From assembly GCA_964343705.1 (NCBI GenBank), contig CAYFJX010000006.1:90927-114926 (forward strand): a stretch of DNA of 24,000 nt. Direction: 5' to 3'. This DNA is from an uncultured Methanosarcinales archaeon (lineage in GTDB: Archaea; Nanobdellota; Nanobdellia; Woesearchaeales; UBA12501). Below, one piece after another: positions 6,879 through 24,000 of this stretch (its first letter is position 1; the number at the start of each line of letters is the position of its first letter). Under the pieces are notes generated by a model. It made no database searches. It was not told the origin of the DNA and saw nothing but the letters and a program-made list of their open reading frames with translations. The translations under genes were made by a program, and so were the position numbers.

Positions 6879-7613
6879 CTATTCCTTCCATCCCTCAATA
6901 ATCTTTCTAAAGTCAACAGGATTTAGCTTGCCTAAATCAATATCTTTATTCAAACTCCAGTATCCTTCCATGGTGTGATCTCCAAAGCGTCCTACACTTT
7001 TCATGCCATGATCTGCGATAATAAGGACGGTATCAACTTCTGGACGTGAACGTACATCTTCTGCAATTTCATCTAGTTCTTTGTAGACAATCTTCATCTT
7101 GATTTCCTTGCCAAAGCTCAAGTGTGCAATGGTATCTGGCAGGGCAAAGTAGCCAAAGATAAGTTCTGGATGATCTTTGCCATTTCTTTTATTCTCACAC
7201 GCCTCATCAAGATGTCTAAAAAAATCTTCTTTAACTTCTCTGTGATGCCGAAAACACTCTTTGTCATACTCTTCAATGGTGATTTGCTGTTGCATTGCTT
7301 GTGCCATTTGCTTCCTGTTAAGATCATGTGGTTCATCTTGGTAATTAAACCCTGGAACATCAATGGCAACATGCTTAAAATTGCTCAAAAATGTTTGTTC
7401 AACTGGCACTTGAAATCGCCACAGGCTTTCAGCTGCAAGAGCGTCTTTTTCAGTATTTTCTCCTTTTAAGAATGATGACCAAATACAAATTGTTCGTGGT
7501 TCAGAAAAGCCATCAAGATTGGTTATACCATACTTTTCTTGCATTAAGTTTTTGAAGCCAAACTTTTCAACATAGGTGATTTCAAGTCCGTCATAGCCAA
7601 GAATGATAATCAT
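6879..7613 (-). CDS. Alkaline-phosphatase-superfamily enzyme (type I phosphodiesterase / nucleotide pyrophosphatase-like core)
   Basis: The N-terminal IIILGYDG looks like a metal-site Asp region. SEPRT is a candidate Thr nucleophile. LIIADHGM near the C-terminus resembles the DHG metal motif typical of this fold. The start overlaps the cysN stop as ATGA (7610-7613). Confidence 0.6.
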   Translation of the reverse strand: MIIILGYDGLEITYVEKFGFKNLMQEKYGITNLDGFSEPRTICIWSSFLKGENTEKDALAAESLWRFQVPVEQTFLSNFKHVAIDVPGFNYQDEPHDLNRKQMAQAMQQQITIEEYDKECFRHHREVKEDFFRHLDEACENKRNGKDHPELIFGYFALPDTIAHLSFGKEIKMKIVYKELDEIAEDVRSRPEVDTVLIIADHGMKSVGRFGDHTMEGYWSLNKDIDLGKLNPVDFRKIIEGWKE

Positions 7614-8836
7614 ACTATAATTCCACCTGCTGTTACATCATTTCCTCGGACCAGAACAAACCGTCCTAGTTCTTCAATAGCATTGAAGTTTTCAACAACA
7701 ATTGGCTCGTCAGTTTTAATAACAACTTCACCAACCTCTGTGTCTTGTAGCTGTGAAGCGTTTTCTTCCAATACTGTTAGATCTGATGAGTTAATTCGCT
7801 TTGAAATTCGCTCAATACGACAACCAACTTCCTGGGTCGCGCATTTCAGTGTTAATTTCTCATTAGCATCAAATGCTTGTTTGTCCATCCAGAACACTCG
7901 TGCATTAATTGTGTTGGTTACCGTTGGTGTTTCCTTTGTTACAACCTCTCCACGTTCAATAAAAAGTGGGTCATCAATAGTGATGCCTACGCTTTCACCT
8001 GCAGTGGCATTGGTTGGCTTTGCCAGGAATTTTTCTACACTTTTGATCTTTGATGTTTTTCCTGAAGGTGAAAATACCACATTATCTCCGACAGTTACAC
8101 TCCCTGATTCAACACGTCCAACAAGTATTCGCTTGTCATCAATCTTGTACACATCCTGTACAGGGAATCGTAATGGCTTGTTTTCCTGGGCCTTTTTGTT
8201 TTCAAATAAATCAAGTGCTTCAAGAATAGTGGGTCCAGTGTACCAATCCATTTTCTCTGCTTTCTTGGCAACATTATCCCCTTCTTTTGCAGAAATAGGA
8301 ATGATTTGCTTTGGTGTAATACCTACTGTTCCTAGGAACGCAGTAATATCATTTTTTACTGTTTCAAACCGTGCAGCGTCATAGTCAACAGCATCCATCT
8401 TATTGATAACAACCATTACTTGTTTGAGTCCAAGCATACCTAGGATGTACGCGTGCCGTTTTGTTTGTTCTTCAACACCTTCTTTTGCAGATACAATGAG
8501 TACACCGGTGTCAGCCTGGCTTGCTCCAGTAATCATGTTTTTCAAAAACTCCTTGTGTCCAGGAGCGTCAATAATAATGTAATTCCTTTTGTCAGTGGAA
8601 AACCAACTTTGCGTGGTGTCAATGGTAACATTTTGCTCTCGTTCTTCAGCAAGACTATCGAGAACATAGGCAAATTCAATATCTTTCCCCAGCATTTCAC
8701 ATGTTTTCTTAACTTCTTCAATAACACCTTCAGGAAGGCTATCTGTATCATAAAAAAGTCTGCCAATAAGTGTGCTTTTTCCATGGTCAACATGACCAAC
8801 AATAACAATCCGCATGAAGTTTTGTCGAATGTCCAT
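7610..8836 (-). CDS. cysN: Sulfate adenylyltransferase subunit 1 (GTPase, CysN type) without a fused APS kinase domain
   Basis: The GTPase motifs are present: G1 GHVDHGKST, G3 DAPGH and G4 NKMD. The CysN-like block EEQTKRHAYILGMLGLKQVMVVINKMDAVDYD is also present. The 408-aa length leaves no room for a CysC domain. Confidence 0.85.
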   Translation of the reverse strand: MDIRQNFMRIVIVGHVDHGKSTLIGRLFYDTDSLPEGVIEEVKKTCEMLGKDIEFAYVLDSLAEEREQNVTIDTTQSWFSTDKRNYIIIDAPGHKEFLKNMITGASQADTGVLIVSAKEGVEEQTKRHAYILGMLGLKQVMVVINKMDAVDYDAARFETVKNDITAFLGTVGITPKQIIPISAKEGDNVAKKAEKMDWYTGPTILEALDLFENKKAQENKPLRFPVQDVYKIDDKRILVGRVESGSVTVGDNVVFSPSGKTSKIKSVEKFLAKPTNATAGESVGITIDDPLFIERGEVVTKETPTVTNTINARVFWMDKQAFDANEKLTLKCATQEVGCRIERISKRINSSDLTVLEENASQLQDTEVGEVVIKTDEPIVVENFNAIEELGRFVLVRGNDVTAGGIIV

Positions 8837-8838
8837 CT

Positions 8839-9228
8839 TTATTGCCTCTCTAATTCGGCTCCTCCACCTTTATCCAATAGGCTAAACCATAATTTTATTC
8901 TCTTTACTTTTTTAAACCAACCGAAATATTTTTCATCCCAGGTTGGTTCTTCTGCTTTTCTTTGTAAATGATGGATCACATCATTTACAAATCTTTCAGT
9001 TTCCTCACCCATTGCTTGCCAATTCCCTCTGACAGTCCATTTCCCTTTTATCATGTTCAACCATCTTCTTTTTAGTCCTTTGGAGAAATCAGCTAGATCT
9101 TCTTTACAATAAATCTCAAGCTTTCCATGGGCCTTACTGAGTTGATTGTATTCCATGGCAAATGGATTGTGCGGGTTCTTTCTTCTTAACTCTCTTTTTA
9201 ATAAGTTCTCATATTTTTTTGCTTTCAT
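8839..9228 (-). CDS. Hypothetical Trp- and Lys-rich 129-aa protein, part of the AT-rich insert between cysD and cysN
   Basis: The ORF is intact but I recognise no motifs. Its stop lies 2 nt before the cysN ATG. Confidence 0.5.
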   Translation of the reverse strand: MKAKKYENLLKRELRRKNPHNPFAMEYNQLSKAHGKLEIYCKEDLADFSKGLKRRWLNMIKGKWTVRGNWQAMGEETERFVNDVIHHLQRKAEEPTWDEKYFGWFKKVKRIKLWFSLLDKGGGAELERQ

Positions 9229-9230
9229 TT

Positions 9231-10160
9231 TTATTTTACCTTATTTCCTGGATTTCTATGTGGGATAATTGATTCCACTTTCTTAAAGAAAATATCTGCA
9301 TGTTTTGCTCTAATCCATATCTTATCTTTATGAATGTTGTTACTTATATTCAAAGCATCAAGAAGACCGCTTACAAATTTCTTTTGTTCTGCATTATGGC
9401 TGCAGATTTGTGGGCAACCACAAGGATGCAAAGCTCCATCTGAGTCATAAAGACCTTTAAGATATTCCCATGCAACCTGTTTCTTAAGAAGCCACCTCTT
9501 CTTCTTTTGTGATGATAAAGATAGGTACCACTGAATAAATTTTTTTGAAGAACCCCATACAAACCAATGACTTTTATTGTCTTTTTTAGCAAATTTCATA
9601 TTTGAGTTAAAGCCAACCTTTCTCAATTTATCTTTAAATTTTTCAGCAAATTCCTTTGTTTTTGTCTCTAAACCAAGAGTGTATGTCTTGTTAGTGTAAC
9701 CATCCCCATCTAATACACCTAAGATATAGGCTAGTTCTTTACTTTTCTCAAAGTCTATTTTAATCAAGTTTTTCTTAGCTAAACACCTTAATCTATCTTT
9801 AATCTCTTTACTTGTATTATAATCTTTCTTTTTCCTTGCTAATTTCAACTTCATAGCTTTGAGTTTAATGGCGCTCCAAGTTCTATGGGGAAGTACACTC
9901 AAGAGTTCTTCCTTTGAAATGTTCAAGTAAGCCTTTTTTAGTATTTCTTCTTCTCTTGCATCCCATTTATTACTATTTCTACTTGCAATTCCATATCTAG
10001 TCATTAATTCAGATATGCCTGGCTGAGTCCAGCCAAAATGTTGAGCAATTTCTCTTTGAAGCATTCCACTTTTGTACAATTTCAGTACCTCATTCTTACC
10101 TGGTCTTTTTTTGCGATTTCTTGCCTTTCGCTCGTAAGGTTTTTGTAAATTTCGTTCCAT
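9231..10160 (-). CDS. Free-standing double-motif LAGLIDADG homing-endonuclease-like protein with N-terminal HTH and Myb/SANT-like segments
   Basis: There are two LAGLIDADG motifs, LAYILGVLDGDGY and YLKGLYDSDGAL. The N-terminal HTH reads GMLQREIAQHFGWTQPGISELMTRYG. The coding sequence is very AT-rich compared with the flanking cys genes. Confidence 0.8.
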   Translation of the reverse strand: MERNLQKPYERKARNRKKRPGKNEVLKLYKSGMLQREIAQHFGWTQPGISELMTRYGIASRNSNKWDAREEEILKKAYLNISKEELLSVLPHRTWSAIKLKAMKLKLARKKKDYNTSKEIKDRLRCLAKKNLIKIDFEKSKELAYILGVLDGDGYTNKTYTLGLETKTKEFAEKFKDKLRKVGFNSNMKFAKKDNKSHWFVWGSSKKFIQWYLSLSSQKKKRWLLKKQVAWEYLKGLYDSDGALHPCGCPQICSHNAEQKKFVSGLLDALNISNNIHKDKIWIRAKHADIFFKKVESIIPHRNPGNKVK

Positions 10161-10165
10161 AATCT

Positions 10166-11014
10166 TTAAAATATGCTTGAAGATATAAAATTTGTGATTA
10201 TTAGGGGGATAATCATGTAGCCCAAAGCCCTTAGCTTTTGCATTGTGTAGGCCCGCTCCTTGTCTTGTGCTCGACCTGCACGCTCAGCACTTTTTGTGTT
10301 TTTCAATTCTTCAACAATTTGTGGTACTGTTGCAGCGTTTGAATCAATAGGTTTGGTGATTGGCATGCATCCTAAACTTCGGTACCGCTTGCCATCTTTT
10401 GCAAAGTACAATTCATTGCAAGGAATTCCTTCTCTCTGTGTGTACAGCCAAATGTCAAGTTCAGTCCAGTGAAGTAATGGGTGAATTCTCATGTGGTTTC
10501 CTGCGTCTTTTCGATTCTTGAATTGATCCCACAATTCTGCTGGCTGGTTTTTGTAATCCCACTTGAATTCCTCGTTTCGTGGGGAAAAATATCTTTCCTT
10601 TGCACGAATGCCGTGCTCATCTCGTCGAATGCCAACAAATAATCCTTCAAACTGGTGTTTGACAATTGCTTTTTTGAGTGCCTGGGTTTTAAGTTGGTCG
10701 CAGCAGGTAAATGCGTCGTGGGTGGAGTAACCTACACCGCGGGCAAGTGCTTCTTCATTTTTTTCTACAAGTAGTCGAAGCCCCCATTGTTGTGCCCAGT
10801 GATCACGAAATTTGTACATCTCAGGAAACTTAAATGTGGTATCCAGGTGCATGACTGGAAAGGGTAGTTTGCCAAAGAAAGCTTTTCTACACAACCATAA
10901 GAGGGTGGTTGAGTCTTTTCCAATGCTCCACAGTAAGGCGAGATTTTTGTATTGTTTGAATGCTTCTCTAATAATATAGATGCTTTTGCTTTCCAGTTCG
11001 TCAAGATGGTCCAT
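10166..11014 (-). CDS. cysD: Sulfate adenylyltransferase subunit 2 (PP-loop ATP pyrophosphatase, CysD type) with an atypical 15-aa C-terminal extension
   Basis: The PP-loop reads SIGKDSTTLLWL and the N-terminus reads MDHLDELESKSIYIIREA. I prefer the ATG at 11014; the track start at 11023 is a GTG. The conserved tail ERAGRAQDKERAYTMQKLRALGYM is followed by IIPLIITNFISSSIF. Confidence 0.9.
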   Translation of the reverse strand: MDHLDELESKSIYIIREAFKQYKNLALLWSIGKDSTTLLWLCRKAFFGKLPFPVMHLDTTFKFPEMYKFRDHWAQQWGLRLLVEKNEEALARGVGYSTHDAFTCCDQLKTQALKKAIVKHQFEGLFVGIRRDEHGIRAKERYFSPRNEEFKWDYKNQPAELWDQFKNRKDAGNHMRIHPLLHWTELDIWLYTQREGIPCNELYFAKDGKRYRSLGCMPITKPIDSNAATVPQIVEELKNTKSAERAGRAQDKERAYTMQKLRALGYMIIPLIITNFISSSIF

Positions 11015-11023
11015 ATTGTTCAC

Positions 11024-17467: not shown

Positions 17468-17794
17468 TTATAATCCTAGATACTTTCTTTTTCTGTCATA
17501 ATACTTGTGTTTATCAAGAAATAACTCAATAAAATACGCGTTTTTTTCTTTTGTTAAGATTCCTCGTATTCTGTTGTCATTTGACTTATAAATAAATGCC
17601 ATGAGATGTCTATGTTTTTTGCATGGTGCAGGTATTTCTGTTCCTTCTTTACAATCTTTTATCCATTCTAATATATCGTTTTGGCGTTCTTCTGTGCAGT
17701 TATTGATAACCTTGTTTACATGGCCATCAAAATTTATAACAACTCCTACAAGCTCTTTTACCCTCAACTTAAATTCTTCAGCTTGCAATGCCAA
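17468..17794 (-). CDS. Hypothetical small protein (~106-108 aa) coupled to the upstream nucleotidyltransferase
   Basis: There is no ATG start. Candidate TTG starts lie at 17794 and 17788, and AGGTGA lies just upstream inside the 3' end of the nucleotidyltransferase gene. The C-terminus reads KNAYFIELFLDKHKYYDRKRKYLGL. I do not recognise a family. Confidence 0.45.
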   Translation of the reverse strand: MALQAEEFKLRVKELVGVVINFDGHVNKVINNCTEERQNDILEWIKDCKEGTEIPAPCKKHRHLMAFIYKSNDNRIRGILTKEKNAYFIELFLDKHKYYDRKRKYLGL

Positions 17795-18668
17795 TCACCT
17801 CTTTAAATGCGCTGACAATATCTTCATAGTATTTTTTGTGTTTTGGATACTCCTTTATTACATCATCATATGATCTGATCAGTTCTTTCATTTCTTTCAA
17901 AGCTTTTCGCTGTGTTGTACTCATTACAACGGCTTGCACAAATATTTTTTTAACAAGTTCTTTAGGTTTTTTTATAGAAAGTAGGACATCGGTTTGCTCT
18001 TTTAGTTGAGGGGAACTTGGGATTTCTGATCTTGAAAGTACCGCTGCTTGCAATAGAAAATCTCTTGCGCTTTTTTTAACTCCTTTGAAGTCTTTAGTAA
18101 GATCTTGGAATAATTCTTGATATAATGAAGTCAAAGTATCAAGGCCTATTTTTTCTGTTATATCTTGCTTTTTAATTTTTTTATTTGAAACACACACCTT
18201 TTGCGCACTCGCAAAAAAAAGCGAGGAGTATACATCTTTGGATAGGTAATTAATATGGTGCTTTCCTTTTTTATAATCATCTTTTTGATATTTGGTAATC
18301 ACAAAAATATCAATATCATTATATTTTTGTGCGTAAAGAAAGCTTCCTGTGATAAATACCTGTTTATTTTTGAATTTTCGTGATAATTTTTTTAGTAGTT
18401 TCTTTGCTTGATCCAATCTTGCTGGCAGTATTTTTTCTCCACCATATACAAAAACATTTTCTGTTTCTTTTTCAACCATTGCGTTGATTGCTTTCATTTT
18501 CCGTGATATTGTTCGTGAGAACTCGTTCTTTTCACTTGAAGTCATTTTTTTATTTGTAAAACGCTTTTCTATGAGTTCAAATTGGTGTTTTGTGAAGATT
18601 ACTGGCACTATACTCTGCTTTATCTTTCTAAACTGTGTAAGATCCACATCATACCCTAATTTTCTCAT
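17778..18668 (-). CDS. Polymerase-beta-superfamily nucleotidyltransferase with a helical C-terminal domain
   Basis: The motif VFITGSFLYAQKYNDIDIFVI fits the GS...DxD nucleotidyltransferase pattern. I prefer the ATG at 18668 (MRKLGYDV), which has TTTATAAATATA about 25-35 nt upstream. The track start at 18734 is a TTG. Confidence 0.65.
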   Translation of the reverse strand: MRKLGYDVDLTQFRKIKQSIVPVIFTKHQFELIEKRFTNKKMTSSEKNEFSRTISRKMKAINAMVEKETENVFVYGGEKILPARLDQAKKLLKKLSRKFKNKQVFITGSFLYAQKYNDIDIFVITKYQKDDYKKGKHHINYLSKDVYSSLFFASAQKVCVSNKKIKKQDITEKIGLDTLTSLYQELFQDLTKDFKGVKKSARDFLLQAAVLSRSEIPSSPQLKEQTDVLLSIKKPKELVKKIFVQAVVMSTTQRKALKEMKELIRSYDDVIKEYPKHKKYYEDIVSAFKEVIGIAS

Positions 18669-18759
18669 AATAATATGTTTATGTATTATTATATTTATAA
18701 AACTTTTGGTTTTCGCTACCTTTTTATGTCTCAAAAACTTTGGATCATCCCTGCAACGC

Positions 18760-18957
18760 TGTCCGTACTGTGGAAAGCCTGAAGAACTTGTGTGGGTGCA
18801 GTAAAGGACAAGAATATTAGATTTCCTTTACTGTTACGAACAGACAACAATTTAATTATTATTGTCTGTGAGTATACATGGTCATGGCCAGTGCAAACAC
18901 TGTGGTGCTAATGTTGAAGAGTGCTGTAGGGGCGAGACGTGTCAGAGTAATCAGTAG
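18760..18957 (+). pseudogene. C(P)XCG-type zinc-ribbon micro-ORF split by a 75-nt in-frame insert that contains stop codons
   Basis: The left half reads CPYCGKPEELVWVQ and ends at TAA 18802-18804. The right half reads HGHGQCKHCGANVEECCRGETCQSNQ and ends at TAG 18955-18957. Both halves are in the same frame (codon starts equal 1 mod 3). The left half has no ATG start. Confidence 0.35.
18801..18869. repeat. Two consecutive perfect 8-bp-stem hairpins inside the zinc-ribbon interruption
   Basis: Hairpin 1 pairs GTAAAGGA (18801-18808) with TCCTTTAC (18824-18831) around a 15-nt loop. Hairpin 2 pairs ACAGACAA (18840-18847) with TTGTCTGT (18862-18869) around a 14-nt loop. Confidence 0.7.
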
Positions 18958-19033
18958 AAATGAACTTCTAAACCGGAAAATCTTCGGGTTTGTCGTCGAA
19001 AAAGTTATAAAGGATGAAAGCAATAAAGGGTGT

Positions 19034-19360
19034 ATGCTTAATTTAACGTTTGAACAGGAAATGAAACTATATGACTGGATTTTTTATAGTTGTATTGCTA
19101 TCATTGTAGTTTGGCTTATTTTGAAAATGACAGGCGTCATCAATACTCCTTTGATTGTACTGTATTTACCTGCAATTGTTGGTGTCCTTGGATTATTTGT
19201 GAGTTTCCACAAAGTGTCAAAATATTTTGGAAGACTCAATGGTGATATCTCCTATTTGAAGGAAGGGGTCAAGGAAGGAAAAGAAGAACGTAAGCACTTG
19301 TCCTCTCAAATTCACAAACTAAATAAAGAATTCCATGGACATCTCAAACAGTTTCATTGA
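19034..19360 (+). CDS. Small two-TM membrane protein with a charged coiled-coil-like C-terminus
   Basis: I prefer the ATG at 19034 (MLNLTFEQEMKLYDWIFYSCIAIIVVWLIL...). The track's N-terminal extension from 18878 overlaps the zinc-ribbon frame and looks non-coding. There are two hydrophobic segments followed by KEGVKEGKEERKHLSSQIHKLNKE. Confidence 0.5.
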   Translation: MLNLTFEQEMKLYDWIFYSCIAIIVVWLILKMTGVINTPLIVLYLPAIVGVLGLFVSFHKVSKYFGRLNGDISYLKEGVKEGKEERKHLSSQIHKLNKEFHGHLKQFH

Positions 19361-19370
19361 GTACTGACTT

Positions 19371-20210
19371 TTATTCTGCCCAGTTTTGAAACAGCATTTG
19401 AGGCATTCTTTCCTTATATTTCTCTCGCAAACCCTTAATTTGATTATACGAAACATCAGTAAACTTTTCAATAAACAATTTTGATAATAATGGGTAATCT
19501 ATCTTATCTGTTGTGTGTAACATACGTGCAGTAGCAAGCCCATACTTGTAGACCATTACAACTTCACTCACAAACTGGTCAAAATAAGGGCTTCCTGGCA
19601 AGGGAGTTACCAAAGGAAGATTCATCTCCCACACATTGTCTTCCTCAGCAAGTCGCTGCGCAAACTCAAGTGTTTCTTCAAGGCTTTCTTTTGTTTCTCC
19701 AGGAAGACCAAGAACAAACGAGGGAAACACGCCAATACCATGCTTTGCAAGTAATTGCACGTCATCAACAAACGCGTCCATAGAGTACCCCCTTTTGTGA
19801 GTTCTATTAGGACTCGGTGAGTCAAACTTAGAATCAGCAAAGTATCTTGATGATTCAACACCAATAAAAACTTGCACACACCCCATGCCTGCGAGGTCAG
19901 CTGCGTATTGTTCAGTAACCATCCCAGGGTACAAGTACATTCTGGTTTGTACATGTTCTAAACTTTGTGGTCGTGCTGCTGCAAGTACTGCAGCTTCTTT
20001 GATAGGGAAAATATCTGCTGTTTCAAAAAACTTGTCAATACCAGCTTCATCATAAAGTTGTTGTATCTCTTCCCAGAATGCTTCAGGTGTTGACCCTCGA
20101 AGGCCTTCAACAGGAATTGCACAATACTCACAGCGTTTTACTCTAAAACAACCACGATATTTTGAGAGGGGAAAAAAGATTGTCCTGATCGCTTTGGTCC
20201 TTGTTTCCAT
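19371..20210 (-). CDS. Radical SAM core domain, the downstream part of a frame-disrupted B12-binding radical SAM enzyme
   Basis: The cluster motif is YRGCFRVKRCEYC, which is CX5CX2C rather than the canonical CX3CX2C. The blocks VFIGVESS and GLPGETKESLEETLEFAQRL are typical of a radical SAM TIM barrel. The Met at 20210 lies just 4 codons after the stop that opens this reading frame. Confidence 0.75.
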   Translation of the reverse strand: METRTKAIRTIFFPLSKYRGCFRVKRCEYCAIPVEGLRGSTPEAFWEEIQQLYDEAGIDKFFETADIFPIKEAAVLAAARPQSLEHVQTRMYLYPGMVTEQYAADLAGMGCVQVFIGVESSRYFADSKFDSPSPNRTHKRGYSMDAFVDDVQLLAKHGIGVFPSFVLGLPGETKESLEETLEFAQRLAEEDNVWEMNLPLVTPLPGSPYFDQFVSEVVMVYKYGLATARMLHTTDKIDYPLLSKLFIEKFTDVSYNQIKGLREKYKERMPQMLFQNWAE

Positions 20211-20689
20211 TCCCAGGGACTTTTAAGATTCTTTAAAGAAATAGGGGGGATTTTTGCCAAGGGTGTTGAGAAATCTGGAAAAGGAAAAGGTTCTTTTCCA
20301 GTCAGCAATTCTATAAATCCTCTTTCACCATCACCAGGTATGGCATAGTCAATGAAATCATTGTTGCGTTTTGCTTTTTCAGCAAGACCAAGCATGTGCG
20401 GTCCTCCAAAAACAATCTTACTTTTTGGATGGTGTGCTTTGACTTTTTCTGCCAATACCAATGCATTGTCGTAATTACTAAACCACGTACCAAAACCAAC
20501 AATGTCAGCGTCAATACTATCAAGAAGCTCTTTGTCACTCATAACATTGCCATCAAACACTTCAACTTCAGCATCAGGCACTTCTTGTTCTGCATACACT
20601 GCCAATGTGAGAAGCCCAAGTGGTGGAATAGGTTGGTCCTGTGTTACTTTCCCTTGACTATGTCTTGAAAATATTAATTGTGCTTTCAT
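20138..20689 (-). CDS. B12 (cobalamin)-binding domain, the upstream part of the same class-B radical SAM enzyme
   Basis: The pattern is PPLGLLTLAVYAEQ...VEVFDGN...DIVGFGTWFSNYDNALVLAEKVKAHHPKSKIVFGGPH...AIPGDGERGFIELL. The ORF overlaps the radical SAM core ORF by 73 nt in a different frame. Its ATG shares one base with the upstream TAA (TAATG). Confidence 0.75.
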   Translation of the reverse strand: MKAQLIFSRHSQGKVTQDQPIPPLGLLTLAVYAEQEVPDAEVEVFDGNVMSDKELLDSIDADIVGFGTWFSNYDNALVLAEKVKAHHPKSKIVFGGPHMLGLAEKAKRNNDFIDYAIPGDGERGFIELLTGKEPFPFPDFSTPLAKIPPISLKNLKSPWEWKQGPKRSGQSFFPSQNIVVVLE

Positions 20690-21510
20690 TATTCCATCTC
20701 AAATGTTATCAGATAAAATTCTCGTGGACTATAATCTAGCTCTATGCCTTGCTCTCGTAATCCTGTATCAATTGCTTGTGCAGGAATAACATCATGACGT
20801 AGCACTTTGAAGCCAGGAAGCATTCTTTGTATCTCATACTCATCAATAAACTCTTCAGGAGGATGACTATGGCCAATTCGTACGTCATCTATTGCACGAC
20901 ACGCTGCAATAACATCAGCGTACTGTTCTGGATCTTCACGTATTCGTTTGGTGAATTGGACGTCGCCTATGACTGCATACCTTTTTTTTTCTAATTGTGT
21001 GGTCATTCGATCAAGCTCTTTCCCAAATGCTTCTTTACTTCCAAGACTAAGTGCAATTTCATGGGCTGCTTTAAGTATGAAAACAACCCCTCCATAATAC
21101 TTGTATCTTTCATTAGGAATATCTTGCATTCCTAGGCTTTCAGACTGATACAATACACTAACATATCCTGGTGGGGTAGGAGATCCCCGTAATCCATACC
21201 CTTCGCCAGGAATTCTTGGTCTTGTTTTTCCTAACTCTGAAGGTTCATAACCCTGTATTGACGCGTCAATCCCTGCTTCATGAAATAGTTCAGCCAAAAC
21301 TCCTGTGCCAGAGCCAATGTCTATAACATGTGGAAGTAAGCTAAGTCTTCTTTGTCTTGCATACTCAGCAGTCATGCCCCATCGTCCTGCAACAGCTTCA
21401 GGACTAAAAAATTCTTTTAAATGCTCTATAACCAGATCATAGAATTCAGTATCTCCTCTAACAAAACGTTCATTATACTCAGTCCCGTCCATTTCGTTAA
21501 ACTTACTCAT
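20689..21510 (-). CDS. Class I SAM-dependent methyltransferase
   Basis: Motif I reads VIDIGSGTGVLAELF, followed by an acidic post-I residue. The gene overlaps the upstream gene as ATGA. Confidence 0.75.
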   Translation of the reverse strand: MSKFNEMDGTEYNERFVRGDTEFYDLVIEHLKEFFSPEAVAGRWGMTAEYARQRRLSLLPHVIDIGSGTGVLAELFHEAGIDASIQGYEPSELGKTRPRIPGEGYGLRGSPTPPGYVSVLYQSESLGMQDIPNERYKYYGGVVFILKAAHEIALSLGSKEAFGKELDRMTTQLEKKRYAVIGDVQFTKRIREDPEQYADVIAACRAIDDVRIGHSHPPEEFIDEYEIQRMLPGFKVLRHDVIPAQAIDTGLREQGIELDYSPREFYLITFEME

Positions 21511-22205
21511 CGTGGTATCAACTGATAAATTGAAAAAGTTCCTTGCTGTAATCCAGTATCTACTTCTTGTTGTTTCAATTCATGTACGTCATAGCCGTGC
21601 TTCGGCCCGTGCACTGCTGGATTATTTCCTTCTCCAGCAAAATGAAAAAATGGGTGTAGCAAATACCCACCAGGTACAAGATGGTGCTTTGCATCGTGTA
21701 AAAAACATTGAAGCAAAGGTCCAGGGTCAAGCATAGCATGTGAAACAGGAAATTCTGAAAAAGGCCAGCCATGAAAAAAAGGATGGTTGAATGTGATTAC
21801 ATCTGCACGCTCAGGAACATTTTCAAATAAATGTCCTTGGCGCACTTTACAGATATCACTCAAATCATAATTTGCTACATTTTCACGAGAATTTGTAACT
21901 GCGGCATCCATGATGTCAGTGAGGTACACCTGGCTTGCCCCACCCATTGCCATAACAATGCCTTGTATCCCCGAACCACAACCCATATCTATTGCAACTT
22001 TTCCTGTGTAATGCTCTGGGTGTGTATGTAAGTATCGTGCAAACTGCACTGCAGTCATAACTTCAGGACGAAGTACACCCGGGTGTACAACAAACCCTGC
22101 GAGAGTTGCTCTTTCATCCAATTCAATATCTATTTCATACTTATCATGCTGGTGCTGCTCAATCTGCTGACATACATGTTCCTCTTGTTCTGGTGTGAGT
22201 GTCAT
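21507..22205 (-). CDS. Class I SAM-dependent methyltransferase of the HemK/PrmC/RsmC-like 'small domain' type
   Basis: The protein has VHPGVLRPEVMT, motif I VAIDMGCGSGIQGIV and motif IV ITFNHPFF (a variant of the (D/N)PPY/F motif). I prefer the ATG at 22205 (MTLTPEQ), which forms an ATGA overlap with the upstream stop at 22202-22204. Confidence 0.75.
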   Translation of the reverse strand: MTLTPEQEEHVCQQIEQHQHDKYEIDIELDERATLAGFVVHPGVLRPEVMTAVQFARYLHTHPEHYTGKVAIDMGCGSGIQGIVMAMGGASQVYLTDIMDAAVTNSRENVANYDLSDICKVRQGHLFENVPERADVITFNHPFFHGWPFSEFPVSHAMLDPGPLLQCFLHDAKHHLVPGGYLLHPFFHFAGEGNNPAVHGPKHGYDVHELKQQEVDTGLQQGTFSIYQLIPR

Positions 22206-22756
22206 TGTACAATACATGGTCTTTTCATTTCTTCAATCACCTTTGCATAACATTCCATTCCTTGCCAGTGCCATCGTAATGCTTGCGCAATTCTCACTGG
22301 TGTTTCTCCATATGCTTCTACTATGCCTCTGATGGGAAACCAAGTGTCATTTCCTTTTCGTGCTGGATGTGCTCTGTCAAACACTGGTAAAGGAACATTT
22401 CCCACTATCAATGGTTTGCGTAATCTATAAGCATCTTTGAGAAGTAAACCCTCAGCACCATACCTTCCTTCGTCAAGCCAATACTTACTTCTTTTCCCCA
22501 TCCCCTGCACAATGCCAAAAATAGTATCAATGCCTTTGCCGCCATGGTGGCCTCGTTTTGTCTTGAAAATGATAAGTTCATCTTCTTTGAGTTTTGCCAT
22601 ATCTTCCAACGTGCTTTGAATTATTCTTGGATTTTGACGCCGCTGTTGTTCTGCTTTTATAGTAGCTTCTCTTTCTAGCTTTCGCTTACATCTCTCTTCT
22701 TCAGCTCTTCGTAAAGAGCTTGTCTGTTCATCATATTGTGCTTCGTCGTATGTCAT
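22202..22756 (-). CDS. Hypothetical 184-aa protein with a charged helical N-terminus and a globular C-terminal domain
   Basis: The ORF is intact and in operon position. The N-terminus reads LRRAEEERCKRKLEREATIKAEQQRRQ, and the C-terminal region reads KTKRGHHGGKGIDTIFGIVQGMGK...WFPIRGIVEAYGETP. I do not recognise a family. Confidence 0.55.
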   Translation of the reverse strand: MTYDEAQYDEQTSSLRRAEEERCKRKLEREATIKAEQQRRQNPRIIQSTLEDMAKLKEDELIIFKTKRGHHGGKGIDTIFGIVQGMGKRSKYWLDEGRYGAEGLLLKDAYRLRKPLIVGNVPLPVFDRAHPARKGNDTWFPIRGIVEAYGETPVRIAQALRWHWQGMECYAKVIEEMKRPCIVQ

Positions 22757-22803
22757 TGTTCAAAGGTTTTATACAACTCTATTCATTTTTCAAAATCAAA
22801 AAA

Positions 22804-23523
22804 TTATTTCATAATCCTCACAAACACACCTGCTCGTGTGTCTACTGGATCAAATCCTCTGTTGTGGTAGTCCATGTCAACTTCTCCACCAACACCTGCA
22901 CGGAGGTTGTCCATGAGGTCATAGCCAACATGTCCTCGGAATACTCCTTTGAACACATTGTCTCCTTTTGCATGAATTGTTTCTGCATCAACAGTCAGTG
23001 GTCCAATATCATAGCTTGGCATGATAACTTGTACTTCACCAAGTGTTACTGGTCCAAATGACGCCCTTAGACTCGTGACTAACTGGGTGCCGCCAATATC
23101 ATTTACTCGGTTAGCACCTGCTACAGGAACAAGATCATCACCCACCATTCTCATCTCACCATAGGGGTTTATTCCTGCAAGGTCTGGGTCAAGTGTTACT
23201 GTGCTTAACATGAAAAATCCTGTCTTGTTCATGTCATAATCTACAGTTGCACGTACTCTTGTAAAATAGCCTATGTCTACTATGCCAAGGTCAACTGGGG
23301 TTGTTCTTGCTTTTACTTCAACTAGAACATCATCTCCTCGTGCAAACACTTCTGCACTTGTTGCATGTGCAGTTGCTACTGTTTGTGTTTTGGCAAGCGC
23401 GTCAAGCGTAGCAGCAGCTGGGTCAGCAAGTGCCACTGTGCTTAGTGCTTTACTTAGCACTCGTGCTGCTCTATGTTTTCTGTACATGTCTCGTAGTTTT
23501 CCTAGTAGTGTCATTGTTGTCAT
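22804..23523 (-). CDS. Hypothetical 239-aa protein rich in Val/Asp/Gly/Thr/Ala and predicted to be beta-rich; first gene of the operon
   Basis: An SD-like GGAGAT precedes the ATG. By my reading the protein has no Cys or Trp. It shows alternating hydrophobic patterns (VLVEVKARTT, IVDIGYFTRVRATVDYD, GVFVRIMK). Its stop is followed immediately by T6 and T4 runs on the minus strand. Confidence 0.55.
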   Translation of the reverse strand: MTTMTLLGKLRDMYRKHRAARVLSKALSTVALADPAAATLDALAKTQTVATAHATSAEVFARGDDVLVEVKARTTPVDLGIVDIGYFTRVRATVDYDMNKTGFFMLSTVTLDPDLAGINPYGEMRMVGDDLVPVAGANRVNDIGGTQLVTSLRASFGPVTLGEVQVIMPSYDIGPLTVDAETIHAKGDNVFKGVFRGHVGYDLMDNLRAGVGGEVDMDYHNRGFDPVDTRAGVFVRIMK

Positions 23524-23660
23524 CTCCTTTCTTGTTTAGAGCTCACGCTAGGTCTGATTCTTTTCAGAAGCTTCCCAACACCTAGCTCTTTTTTTTCTTT
23601 ATTTGCTCTTTCTTACTCTTTAGTGAAGCAAGCTTACTTTATAAGTGTTACCTCGCCCTA
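23524..23660 (-). other. Long (~135-nt), purine-rich, structured 5' leader of the operon
   Basis: A TSS is predicted about 29 nt downstream of the TATA (23687-23681), but no ATG occurs until 23523. An imperfect hairpin spans 23538-23589: CTAGGT (23548-23553) pairs with ACCTAG (23580-23585), and AGAG (23538-23541) pairs with CTCT (23586-23589) across a 4-nt bulge. The loop contains the palindrome GAAGCTTC. Confidence 0.4.
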
Positions 23661-23690
23661 AGGGGGGAGAAATAGGAAGGTTTATATGTT
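23661..23690 (-). promoter_or_regulatory. Archaeal-type TATA promoter with the conserved downstream cassette (copy 4, minus strand)
   Basis: The minus strand reads CATATAAACCTTCCTATTTCTCCCCCCTTAGGG. The 14-mer TCCTATTTCTCCCC (23677-23664) is identical to 940-953 and occupies the same position next to the TATA box. Confidence 0.55.
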
Positions 23691-23753: not shown

Positions 23754-24000
23754 ATGACACAAATATATCGTACCACAAAAATACCTGAATTTTACTTTAA
23801 ACAGATAGAAGACTATCTCAATACCTCATCAGAATTTGTTTCAGTTTCTGAATTTATTAGGGATTCAATTAAAGATAAATTAAAATCTATTAAGAGTGCT
23901 AAATTACCTCATTTTCTGTTGACTAAAGATCTTGTATTTAATGAAGAAACCATAAACATAGTTCACAAAAAAATCCTATTAAAAAATAATGAAAAAGAAA
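23754..24000 (+). CDS. Ribbon-helix-helix DNA-binding protein, C-terminally truncated by the window edge
   Basis: This is my own translation, because the ORF runs off the window and is absent from the track: MTQIYRTTKIPEFYFKQIEDYLNTSSEFVSVSEFIRDSIKDKLKSIK... It shows the RHH pattern of a beta-strand followed by two helices. TTTATAT at 23722-23728 lies 32 nt upstream. The gene is divergent from the methyltransferase/radical SAM operon. Confidence 0.55.
   Translation, partial: MTQIYRTTKIPEFYFKQIEDYLNTSSEFVSVSEFIRDSIKDKLKSIKSAKLPHFLLTKDLVFNEETINIVHKKILLKNNEKE

What the first reader, a model, noticed from the sequence alone, without database searches (positions are those of the whole stretch)
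19371..23690. Candidate undescribed modification system: beta-rich protein, unknown protein, two SAM methyltransferases and a B12-radical SAM enzyme in one tightly coupled operon
Five minus-strand genes run from a cassette-bearing promoter through a ~135-nt leader. ORF1 (239 aa) is Val/Asp/Gly/Thr-rich with no Cys or Trp. ORF2 (184 aa) is unknown. Then come a HemK-like methyltransferase (NHPF motif), a second class I methyltransferase, and a class-B (cobalamin) radical SAM enzyme. The last four genes are joined by ATGA/ATGA/TAATG overlaps. ORF1 is set apart by a 47-nt gap that begins with T6 and T4 runs (archaeal oligo-T termination signal) and contains a TATAAAA. That pattern would let ORF1 be expressed in excess of the enzymes, as with a substrate or structural protein followed by its tailoring enzymes. 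Combinations of B12-radical SAM C-methylases with class I N/S-methyltransferases are known from the methylations of methyl-coenzyme M reductase and from proteusin-type peptide maturation. No such substrate is apparent here. My working hypothesis is a multi-methylation machinery acting on the co-encoded ORF1/ORF2 protein or on a lipid or glycan. The function is not established by anything I can see.
Basis: inference. Interest (0 to 1): 0.75.

Follow-up and report, generated by a model that had tools for sequence, protein, structure and literature searches.

The report
Archaeal porin-like barrel with methylase genes
A tiny symbiotic-type (DPANN) archaeon carries an operon whose first gene is predicted to make an exported, bacterial-porin-like beta-barrel, which archaea are not known to have. 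It is followed by methyl-transfer enzymes, including a broken vitamin-B12 radical enzyme, that recur next to such barrel genes in related archaea, so they are candidate tailoring enzymes with an unknown target.

Summary
The gene string is real, but it differs from the description. The "B12-radical SAM gene" is two ORFs (20138-20689 and 19371-20210) related by a -1 shift at a T_TTT_TTC heptamer. The shift is identical in five assemblies.

ORF1 matches no Pfam family or PDB sequence. A confident AlphaFold model (pLDDT 85) shows a 12-stranded barrel, and every top PDB neighbour is a bacterial outer-membrane barrel (NanC, KdgM, intimin/invasin).

The host is a Woesearchaeota-type DPANN archaeon. 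The barrel gene sits at a conserved locus, divergent from a multi-repeat TrmB regulator, behind a promoter cassette seen in at least 30 of 80 related loci. An oligo-T tract follows its stop codon.

Intact orthologues of the radical SAM enzyme have an unusual CX5/CX8-CX2C motif. They lie directly next to barrel-family genes in several lineages, and next to other signal-peptide proteins of similar build, one of which is a Pfam outer-membrane barrel. The HemK-like methyltransferase recurs in two or three loci. ORF2 and the second methyltransferase do not recur.

Best reading: a highly expressed exported barrel plus a lineage-variable methylation module. The target (the barrel precursor or a hydrophobic cargo) is unproven, and the radical enzyme here is impaired or needs frameshifting.

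The parts
23637..23673 (-). Conserved promoter cassette: the imperfect palindrome TTTCTCCCCCC-TTA-GGGCGAGG, followed by a BRE-like GTAAC and the TATA box CTTATAAAG
   Evidence: The window holds one copy. It is 73% conserved with L001. The same cassette (T[T/A]CTCCCCC-N3-4-GGGGTAGGTAAT-TTTATATA) lies in the TrmB divergent promoter of 30 of 80 Woesearchaeota/Nanoarchaeota loci.
23524..23636 (-). 5' leader with blocks conserved in L001 (AAGCTTGCTTCACT, A-rich run, TTCTGAAAA, ACCTAGCGTGAGCT, GGAG Shine-Dalgarno)
   Evidence: Alignment A2. No Rfam family matched.
22804..23523 (-). ORF1: exported 12-stranded porin-like beta-barrel. Residues 1-50 form a conserved Ala-rich leader ending in ATAHA
   Evidence: AF2 pLDDT 85 with 12 long strands. 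The Foldseek top hits are all outer-membrane barrels. The strands alternate a hydrophobic and a polar face. The family has 23 representatives. No Pfam family or PDB sequence matched.
22757..22803 (-). Intergenic spacer with T6 and T4 runs (archaeal terminator-like) and TATAAAA
   Evidence: Read directly from the sequence. Oligo-T follows the barrel stop codon in L001, L008, L011, L014, L018 and L096.
22202..22756 (-). ORF2: lineage-specific orphan protein of 184 aa
   Evidence: Only its own cluster was found among 5.8 billion proteins. It is absent from L001. No family or phage match. The coding signal is positive.
21507..22205 (-). MT1: HemK/PrmA-like N-methyltransferase with NHPF motif, 232 aa from the second ATG
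   Evidence: Pfam MTS 47.6 bits. The closest PDB entries are HemK, GenN and PRMTs. Orthologues occur in L001, L030 (E 3.5e-51) and L103 (E 1.5e-60).
20689..21510 (-). MT2: divergent probable class I methyltransferase (DIGSGTG motif)
   Evidence: Only a sub-threshold Pfam hit. It has a single 39% homologue, P0009, which stands alone in L007.
20178..20689 (-). Radical SAM gene, 5' part: cobalamin-binding domain in frame 0 (the frame-0 ORF runs on to the stop at 20138)
   Evidence: Pfam B12-binding 39.4 bits. Aligns to the N-terminal half of intact orthologues.
20171..20177 (-). T_TTT_TTC heptamer where the reading frame must shift by -1
   Evidence: The fused product aligns without a gap across the junction (SFFPLSKYRGC against SSFPISQFRGC in L018). 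The downstream RNA is not unusually structured, z = +0.78.
19371..20176 (-). Radical SAM gene, 3' part: rSAM core with a CX5CX2C cluster motif and the C-terminal domain, in the -1 frame
   Evidence: Pfam Radical_SAM 44.4 bits. The fused protein is 42% identical to the intact 450-aa L018 enzyme. The coding signal is intact in its own frame.

Best explanation
This is an operon of a Woesearchaeota-type DPANN archaeon. It is transcribed from the conserved divergent promoter of a multi-repeat TrmB regulator.

The lead gene encodes an exported 12-stranded beta-barrel of bacterial outer-membrane (NanC/KdgM-like) architecture with a polar lumen, which implies a channel or pore.

An oligo-T tract directly after its stop codon lets most transcripts end there. 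The downstream enzymes would then be made at lower level by read-through. They are a HemK-like N-methyltransferase, a divergent methyltransferase and a cobalamin-dependent radical SAM enzyme of a dedicated subfamily.

These enzymes form a lineage-variable tailoring module that is repeatedly attached to such barrel genes. I infer that they most likely methylate the unfolded barrel precursor in the cytoplasm before export. The rSAM would add C-methyl groups and MT1 would add N-methyl groups.

In this genome the rSAM can be made only by -1 frameshifting at T_TTT_TTC, or as two chains. It also lacks a conserved 15-residue hairpin, so the module is probably impaired.

Shown: gene structures, the predicted fold, the synteny and the recurrence. 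Inferred: export, membrane insertion, the enzymes' substrate and expression levels.
For: Fold:
- AF2 pLDDT is 85 (above 90 through the barrel), with 12 strands of 10-15 residues.
- The top Foldseek PDB hits are all outer-membrane barrels. NanC gives TM 0.55/0.63 and KdgM gives 0.47/0.61.
- Across the family, every strand has a hydrophobic face (mean hydropathy +1.48) and a polar face (-0.90).

Export: family members carry Sec-type signal peptides or an N-terminal membrane anchor.

Locus: the order RadA, TrmB (divergent), barrel, TRAM, PpsA is conserved in archaeal MAGs. The promoter cassette is conserved.

Linkage to the enzymes:
- rSAM orthologues (E 6e-112 to 1e-36) lie immediately after family barrels in L018/L096, L011-13/L055/L123 and L030.
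- In a reverse search seeded on the rSAM, about 9 of 12 TrmB-linked orthologues have a signal-peptide or lipobox protein in the same cluster. One of these hits Pfam Phenol_MetA_deg, an outer-membrane barrel family, at E 2.8e-13.
- MT1 orthologues occur in L001, L030 and L103.
- A further class I methyltransferase sits beside the rSAM in L104 and L105.

Substrate class:
- The best solved relative of the rSAM profile is the protein-modifying enzyme MgmA, PDB 9CCB, at E 2.8e-17 (identity from PMC11796369).
- MT1's nearest solved relatives are N-methyltransferases.

Terminator: oligo-T follows the barrel stop codon in all loci checked.
Against: - No experiment or mass data exist, and the substrate is pure inference.
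- Most family barrels lack adjacent enzymes, for example L008, L014, L016, L017, L036, L038, L042, L044 and L047. Close relatives differ only in whether the rSAM is present (L018 against L016/L017). The barrel therefore does not need the enzymes.
- No residue or leader type separates enzyme-linked barrels from the others.
- The rSAM also occurs directly beside TrmB without a visible barrel (L115/L116) and with a GDSL lipase (L104), which fits a lipid or small-molecule substrate.
- rSAM similarity to MgmA is at superfamily level only: 24.9 bits against a cutoff of 360.
- ORF1's own N-terminus is only weakly hydrophobic.
- Archaea have no known outer membrane or BAM machinery.
- The barrel is a prediction from 22 sequences.
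Confidence: 0.4

Rival explanations
1. The enzymes act on a hydrophobic small molecule or lipid, not on the barrel. An example would be isoprenoid lipids scavenged from a host. The barrel would be the channel or binding protein for that cargo, and the genes are co-regulated for that reason.
For: - One rSAM-linked barrel belongs to Phenol_MetA_deg/COG4313, a family of hydrophobic-compound channels. A COG4313 structure, 4rl8, is also among ORF1's fold hits.
- L104 has TrmB, then a class I methyltransferase, a GDSL lipase and the rSAM.
- The rSAM hits lipid-related class B models (HpnJ, ladderane lipid rSAM, HpnR) as well as it hits protein-related ones.
- Barrels occur without the enzymes.
Against: - All those model hits are far below the curated cutoffs.
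- MT1's nearest relatives methylate protein, aminoglycoside or RNA nitrogen atoms, not lipids.
- No lipid-synthesis genes lie in the operon.
Confidence: 0.25
2. There is no functional link. The site just downstream of a strongly expressed, terminator-ended barrel gene tolerates insertions. The methyltransferases, the rSAM and ORF2 are unrelated passengers, for example RNA or housekeeping modifiers. The rSAM here is a decaying pseudogene.
For: - The content between the barrel gene and the TRAM gene varies from locus to locus.
- ORF2 and MT2 are lineage-specific, and the MT2 homologue stands alone.
- The frameshift and the 15-residue deletion affect the window rSAM. A second split rSAM occurs in L119.
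- In the window lineage a Fic gene and a 147-aa gene are inserted on the other side of the promoter.
Against: - The same rSAM subfamily is found next to barrels that share only 21-35% identity, and next to exported proteins of other sequence families. It sits upstream in some loci and downstream in others.
- Spacers are very short and junctions overlap.
- Both rSAM halves keep a full coding signal.
Confidence: 0.22
3. A RiPP/proteusin-like system. ORF1 would be a precursor whose N-terminal leader recruits the rSAM and methyltransferases, and a modified fragment would then be released.
For: - The enzyme combination (B12-rSAM plus N-methyltransferase) resembles polytheonamide maturation (my own knowledge).
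- ORF1, P0011, P0025 and P0028 share a conserved leader, KH[KR]xAR..SKA...DPAxAALDA..GTQTVATAxA.
- The rSAM hits the RiPP models rSAM_ocin_1 and ApyD weakly.
Against: - ORF1 is a 190-residue, confidently folded barrel, not a short core peptide.
- The conserved leader also occurs in P0011, which has no enzymes nearby. Enzyme-linked barrels include ones with ordinary signal peptides.
- No NHLP/Nif11 leader, protease or transporter is present.
- The RiPP model scores are far below the cutoffs (47 against 282 bits).
Confidence: 0.05

Closest known systems
KdgM/NanC-type 12-stranded outer-membrane porins, and the intimin/invasin and autotransporter beta-domains, of Gram-negative bacteria
   Same: The predicted fold matches: 12 long antiparallel strands. 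Foldseek probability is 1.0, and TM is 0.55/0.63 to NanC 2wjq. The strands alternate a hydrophobic and a polar face. Relatives have an N-terminal export signal.
   Different: - There is no sequence-family membership (no Pfam or PDB sequence hits).
- The host is an archaeon with no known outer membrane or BAM insertase.
- The gene is tied to a TrmB regulator.
- ORF1 contains no Trp, so any aromatic girdle would be weak.
MgmA (PDB 9CCB) and Mmp10: cobalamin-dependent radical SAM C-methyltransferases that modify methyl-coenzyme M reductase
   Same: - They share the architecture of a B12-binding Rossmann domain, an rSAM core and a C-terminal domain.
- MgmA is the best solved relative of the subfamily profile (E 2.8e-17).
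- It is an archaeal enzyme that acts on an unfolded protein substrate (PMC11796369).
   Different: - The score is 24.9 bits against the TIGR04014 cutoff of 360, so this is not an orthologue.
- The cluster motif is CX5/CX8-CX2C.
- No MCR genes are present.
- The putative substrate is an exported barrel.
- The gene is frameshifted here.
Proteusin (polytheonamide) maturation: PoyB/C B12-rSAM C-methyltransferases plus the PoyE N-methyltransferase
   Same: A class B rSAM and an N-methyltransferase are encoded behind the gene of their presumed protein substrate. The product is membrane-active. This comparison rests on my own knowledge.
   Different: - The candidate substrate is a folded 190-residue barrel, not a ribosomal peptide core with an NHLP leader.
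- There is no epimerase, protease or exporter.
- The RiPP rSAM model scores are far below their cutoffs.
HemK/PrmC and PrmA protein N-methyltransferases
   Same: MT1 has the MTS domain, the (N/D)xPF motif NHPF, and HemK as its closest solved structure.
   Different: MT1 is below every equivalog cutoff: PrmC scores 43 against 199 bits and archaeal HemK2/MTQ2 scores 30 against 87 bits. It is therefore not the housekeeping release-factor methylase.
Programmed -1 ribosomal frameshifting, for example Sulfolobus fucA1 (my own knowledge)
   Same: There is a perfect X_XXY_YYZ heptamer, U_UUU_UUC, in the correct frame. The shifted product aligns without a gap to intact orthologues.
   Different: - There is no stimulatory downstream structure.
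- No orthologue shares the shift.
- A 1-nt deletion in a T7 run would look identical.

Membership tests
Class B (cobalamin-dependent) radical SAM enzymes | N-terminal cobalamin-binding Rossmann domain | tested here: met
   PF02310 scores 39.4 bits (cutoff 32.1) on 20138-20689.
Class B (cobalamin-dependent) radical SAM enzymes | Radical SAM core with three cluster cysteines (canonical CX3CX2C) | tested here: inconclusive
   PF04055 scores 44.4 bits (cutoff 29.5). Three Cys are present, but spaced CX5CX2C here and in L018, and CX8CX2C in four other orthologues.
Class B (cobalamin-dependent) radical SAM enzymes | Single intact open reading frame joining both domains | tested here: not met
   The two ORFs are in a -1 relation. 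Five orthologues are single ORFs of 434-450 aa.
MgmA, MCR glutamine C-methyltransferase (TIGR04014) | Score at or above the curated equivalog cutoff | tested here: not met
   24.9 bits against 360. The profile reaches E 2.8e-17 to 9CCB, which is superfamily-level similarity only.
RiPP/proteusin maturation rSAM (TIGR03975, ApyD) | Model cutoff reached, and a precursor with a recognised leader (NHLP/Nif11) is present | tested here: not met
   47.4 bits against 281.85 and 48.4 against 750. ORF1 has no Pfam or NCBIfam hit.
HemK/PrmC N5-glutamine methyltransferase | MTS fold with an NPPY-type motif | tested here: met
   PF05175 scores 47.6 bits. The motif is NHPF. HemK is the top PDB hit at E 1.1e-7.
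HemK/PrmC N5-glutamine methyltransferase | Equivalog-level score (PrmC, or archaeal HemK2/MTQ2) | tested here: not met
   TIGR03534 scores 43.1 against 199.1. TIGR00537 scores 29.7 against 87.
Bacterial outer-membrane beta-barrel (KdgM/NanC-like, 12 strands) | Closed meander barrel of about 12 transmembrane-length strands | tested here: met
   This rests on prediction only. AF2 pLDDT is 85 with 12 strands. The top Foldseek hits are all outer-membrane barrels.
Bacterial outer-membrane beta-barrel (KdgM/NanC-like, 12 strands) | Sequence membership in a described OMP family | tested here: not met
   No Pfam family matched any of the 22 members, and no PDB sequence matched the profile.
Bacterial outer-membrane beta-barrel (KdgM/NanC-like, 12 strands) | Resides in a lipid membrane and forms a pore | not testable with these tools
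   This needs fractionation, bilayer conductance measurements or cryo-ET.
Programmed -1 ribosomal frameshift site | Slippery heptamer X_XXY_YYZ in the zero frame | tested here: met
   T_TTT_TTC lies at 20177-20171, with codons TCT TTT TTC.
Programmed -1 ribosomal frameshift site | Downstream stimulatory RNA structure, and conservation of the shift in relatives | tested here: not met
   Folding gives z = +0.78. All five orthologues are unshifted.
Class I SAM methyltransferase (for MT2) | Significant match to a methyltransferase model or structure | tested here: inconclusive
   Methyltransf_23 scores 19 bits against a cutoff of 27. No PDB hit. The AF2 model has pLDDT 41. The motif I sequence DIGSGTG and an acidic residue after strand 2 are visible in the sequence.

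The most novel reading that the evidence does not exclude
Woesearchaeota-type DPANN archaea keep, at a conserved TrmB-controlled locus, a fast-evolving repertoire of exported outer-membrane-type beta-barrels. These would be the first porin-like transmembrane barrels in Archaea. They could act as pores in the symbiont's own envelope or in a host membrane. In several lineages a dedicated cobalamin radical SAM methylase (CX5/8CX2C subfamily) and a HemK-like N-methyltransferase mature these barrels. That would be a previously unknown post-translational methylation of a membrane beta-barrel.
Probability: 0.25. Interest if true: 0.9.

Novelty: new variant of a known kind. Interest (0 to 1): 0.7.

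Why it matters
Transmembrane beta-barrels are regarded as a hallmark of bacterial outer membranes and of organelles derived from them. A conserved, regulator-linked family of such barrels in DPANN archaea would bear on two open questions: how these genome-reduced symbionts are enveloped, and how they exchange material with hosts.

The recurrent pairing with a private subfamily of B12-radical SAM enzymes gives a concrete, testable candidate for a new protein (or cargo) methylation pathway. It also defines a small set of intact orthologue pairs suitable for co-expression.

If the link proves false, the result still reclassifies ORF1. It also flags the rSAM here as frameshifted, which changes how this operon should be annotated.

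Tried and rejected
- **ORF1 and ORF2 family searches.** Pfam, NCBIfam, PHROGs, PADLOC and PDB sequence searches gave nothing. tblastn of ORF2 against phages gave nothing.
- **Defence-system idea.** Only domain-level hits appeared: MT1 to mad2, and the rSAM to PDC-M51A.
- **Riboswitch or ncRNA in the leader.** No Rfam family matched.
- **Repeated promoter cassette inside the window.** The cassette occurs only once there.
- **Locus searches in GTDB genomes.** Alignments A3 and A4 were too divergent to search with. A1 found nothing. Anchoring on TrmB worked.
- **Remote homology.** hhalign and hmmsearch found no link between the ORF1 family and the other TrmB-adjacent secreted proteins. Pfam on ten of these proteins gave only a non-significant OMP_b-brl hit.
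- **MT2 structure.** The AF2 model was unusable, with pLDDT 41.
- **Frameshift-stimulating RNA structure.** None was found.
- **Residues separating rSAM-linked barrels from rSAM-less ones.** None was evident.
- **TRAM as the rSAM's partner (RNA substrate).** Rejected. TRAM is present whether or not the rSAM is, and it is absent from the window, L018 and L030.
- **Literature.** No paper in the held library describes beta-barrel porin-like proteins in Woesearchaeota.

Full report
**1. What is in the sequence**

The minus strand between 23523 and 19371 carries six ORFs, not five:
- ORF1, 22804-23523, 239 aa
- ORF2, 22202-22756, 184 aa
- MT1, 21507-22217
- MT2, 20689-21510
- a 183-aa ORF with a cobalamin-binding domain, 20138-20689
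- a 279-aa ORF with the radical SAM core, 19371-20210

The last two overlap by 73 nt and stand in a -1 frame relation. The frame must change at TCT TTT TTC CCC (heptamer T_TTT_TTC, 20177-20171). A -1 shift there gives a 439-aa protein. That protein aligns end to end, and without a gap across the junction, with intact orthologues: 42% identity to a 450-aa enzyme in L018, and 27% (E 3e-43) to a 436-aa enzyme in L011.

The shifted sequence is identical in five assemblies from runs ERR2281799-803. It is therefore not a one-off assembly error, but all five sample one population.

- ORF1 has no Cys or Trp.
- MT1 carries NHPF.
- The junctions are ATGA/ATGA/TAATG. The L001 homologue shows that MT1 starts at the second ATG, 22205.
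- The 47-nt ORF1-ORF2 spacer has T6, T4 and TATAAAA.

Both rSAM halves and ORF2 keep a positive coding signal in their own frames.

**2. What ORF1 is**

ORF1 has no Pfam, NCBIfam, PHROG, PADLOC or PDB sequence match. The indexed search of 5.8 billion proteins found only the protein itself and one 64% homologue. An exhaustive profile search of 1.84 billion representatives found a small family of 23 members. Members are 200-315 aa. They carry either a classical signal peptide, a long N-terminal domain followed by a membrane anchor, or the conserved Ala-rich leader seen in ORF1.

An AlphaFold2 model built on the 22-sequence alignment is confident, with mean pLDDT 85 and above 90 across residues 60-239. 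It consists of 12 long antiparallel strands behind low-confidence N-terminal helices. All leading Foldseek matches in the PDB are bacterial outer-membrane barrels: the invasin/intimin beta-domains, KdgM, NanC (TM 0.55/0.63), OmpG and autotransporters. In every strand the family alternates a hydrophobic face (mean hydropathy +1.48) with a polar, charge-rich face (-0.90).

ORF1 is therefore best described as an exported, porin-like 12-stranded beta-barrel. This is a prediction. Membrane residence is not shown.

**3. Organism and locus**

The context genes are archaeal in character (an HVO_A0114-type HTH protein, a Ski2-type helicase, and TrmB just beyond the window end). The loci most similar at the TrmB gene come from MAGs labelled Woesearchaeota or Nanoarchaeota.

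In the family members whose contigs I could read, the barrel gene lies divergent from a large TrmB-family protein of 517-1084 aa. That protein has a highly conserved N-terminal HTH followed by several repeats of a C-terminal domain. The gene order is conserved: RadA, TrmB (divergent), barrel, TRAM, then LigT in L008/L009, then PEP synthase. In the window lineage a Fic gene and a 147-aa gene are inserted between TrmB and the promoter.

The promoter region upstream of ORF1 is 73% identical to that of L001. It contains the imperfect palindrome TTTCTCCCCCC-TTA-GGGCGAGG followed by a BRE/TATA. The same cassette stands in the TrmB divergent promoter of 30 of the 80 related loci. It is probably the TrmB operator together with the core promoter. 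That assignment is an inference.

**4. Do the genes travel together?**

*Forward survey.* I took 80 GTDB loci anchored on TrmB. Fifteen have an ORF1-family gene next to TrmB.
- An orthologue of the rSAM follows the barrel directly in L018 (E 6e-112) and L055.
- In L030 the order is barrel, 156 aa, MT1 (E 3.5e-51), 129 aa, rSAM.
- L037 has a weak MT1-like gene.
- In L001 the barrel homologue is followed after 24 nt by the start of an MT1 orthologue, with no ORF2.
- The remaining family barrels have no such enzymes nearby.
- Close relatives differ only in the presence of the rSAM: L018 has it, L016 and L017 do not.

*Reverse survey.* I seeded a metagenome scan on the rSAM alignment.
- Among strong, TrmB-linked orthologues, two more (L096, L123) follow family barrels.
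- Seven others sit in a cluster with a different signal-peptide or lipobox protein of 200-470 aa. Most end in a strand-like segment, and some of those close on an aromatic residue (L102, L105, L107, L109, L111, L114, L117).
- The L117 protein hits Pfam Phenol_MetA_deg, an outer-membrane barrel family, at E 2.8e-13. The others have no detectable homology to ORF1. Their barrel nature is inferred from sequence features only.
- A class I methyltransferase sits beside the rSAM in L104 (with a GDSL lipase) and in L105, and MT1 does so in L103.

*Lineage-specific genes.* MT2 has a single 39% homologue, which stands alone between a nitroreductase-like gene and a DNA ligase gene. ORF2 has no homologue at all outside this population.

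*Summary.* The conserved association is barrel plus rSAM, sometimes with MT1. It is not the five-gene set.

**5. The enzymes**

*rSAM.* It has both defining Pfam domains but reaches no curated family cutoff. Its subfamily has an unusual cluster motif, RGC-X5-C-X2-C or RGC-X8-C-X2-C. The best solved relative of the subfamily profile is PDB 9CCB (E 2.8e-17). That entry is MgmA, the B12-rSAM that C-methylates a glutamine of methyl-coenzyme M reductase and has a cleft for unfolded protein (PMC11796369). This is superfamily-level similarity. Besides the frameshift, the window enzyme lacks a 15-residue hairpin that is present in all five orthologues.

*The frameshift.* The RNA downstream of the heptamer is not unusually stable, z = +0.78. 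No orthologue is shifted. A recent 1-nt loss from a T7 run is therefore at least as likely as programmed frameshifting. A split two-chain enzyme is also possible.

*MT1.* This is an MTS-fold enzyme whose nearest solved relatives are N-methyltransferases (HemK, GenN, PRMTs). It is not the housekeeping HemK2/MTQ2.

*MT2.* This is only a probable methyltransferase.

**6. How it most likely works**

An oligo-T tract follows the barrel stop codon in every locus inspected, including those where the rSAM starts 24-38 nt later. Oligo-T is the archaeal intrinsic termination signal (established knowledge). The barrel is therefore probably made in excess, with the enzymes made by read-through.

Radical SAM enzymes work in the cytoplasm, whereas the barrel is exported. 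Any modification of the barrel must therefore occur on the unfolded precursor, as MgmA does with MCR.

I put 0.40 on "a tailoring module that methylates the barrel precursor". I put 0.25 on [quoted passage not shown]. I put about 0.22 on "no functional link, with a decaying rSAM". I put 0.05 on a RiPP-like precursor. In this genome the module is probably impaired.

**7. Comparison with known systems**

- The fold is that of KdgM/NanC-type porins, but there is no sequence membership and no known outer membrane in the host.
- The enzyme set resembles the MCR modification enzymes and proteusin maturation in logic. It fails every membership cutoff and lacks their substrates.
- I found no paper in the held library that describes such barrels in Woesearchaeota.

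**8. Verdict**

I rate it a new variant of a known kind. A more radical reading cannot be excluded, at about 0.25 probability. Overall interest is 0.7.

Noticed in passing
window 23637-23673 (-); L016-L059, just upstream of the TrmB starts: A cassette of about 40 nt, T[T/A]CTCCCCC-N3-4-GGGGTAGGTAAT-TTTATATA, is conserved in the divergent promoter of multi-repeat TrmB genes in 30 of 80 Woesearchaeota/Nanoarchaeota loci. It is probably an operator plus BRE/TATA.
   Followed up: partly
L002 7160-8713, L008 7918-9870, L011 5878-7878, L014 3-2885: The TrmB-family proteins here are 517 to more than 1000 aa long. They have one near-invariant N-terminal HTH and a variable number of tandem repeats of a C-terminal domain of about 115-130 aa ending in ...F..LW.Q.V.
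   Followed up: partly
L016-L059, first gene divergent from TrmB: About 31 of 44 long-TrmB loci have a divergent neighbour of 200-430 aa with a signal peptide or lipobox; many end in a strand-like segment, and some of those close on an aromatic residue. Only 15 belong to the ORF1 family. The position is conserved while the sequence is highly diverse.
   Followed up: partly
window 23754-24000 (+), continuing beyond the window (L002 9144-9770 and 8704-9147): In this lineage only, a Fic/DOC-domain gene and a 147-aa gene of unknown function are inserted between the conserved promoter cassette and TrmB.
   Followed up: no
window about 20240-20280 (-); alignment A6 columns 140-160: The window rSAM lacks a 15-residue hairpin (consensus IPNLVYRxxxxIxRN) that all five intact orthologues have. 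This is a second lesion in addition to the frameshift.
   Followed up: partly
L119 4962-5741 and 5839-6354: A second member of the same rSAM subfamily is split into two ORFs at a different position.
   Followed up: no
L007 382-1131: The only homologue of MT2 (39% identity) stands alone between a nitroreductase-like gene and an ATP-dependent DNA ligase gene. MT2 is therefore not tied to the operon.
   Followed up: yes
L104 1010-4159; L105 2760-6967: Other rSAM clusters exist. L104 has TrmB, then a class I methyltransferase, a GDSL lipase and the rSAM. L105 has a lipoprotein ending in GTIGWKF, then a class I methyltransferase, the rSAM and a 233-aa ORF.
   Followed up: partly
window 7610-11023 (-): A free-standing LAGLIDADG-domain ORF (9231-10160) and a 129-aa ORF lie between a cysD-like PAPS_reduct-domain gene (10166-11023) and a cysN-like GTPase gene (7610-8836).
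   Followed up: no
window 17778-18734 (-) and 18878-19360 (+): Just downstream of the operon lie two genes. One is a 318-aa protein with a weak nucleotidyltransferase/DUF6932 signature, and PADLOC gives it a weak oligonucleotide-cyclase hit. The other is a 160-aa protein of unknown function with no family match.
   Followed up: no
window 23514-23523 (-): The GGAG Shine-Dalgarno sequence abuts the first ATG of ORF1 and lies 9 nt before the second ATG (Met4). The true start is therefore probably Met4.
   Followed up: no
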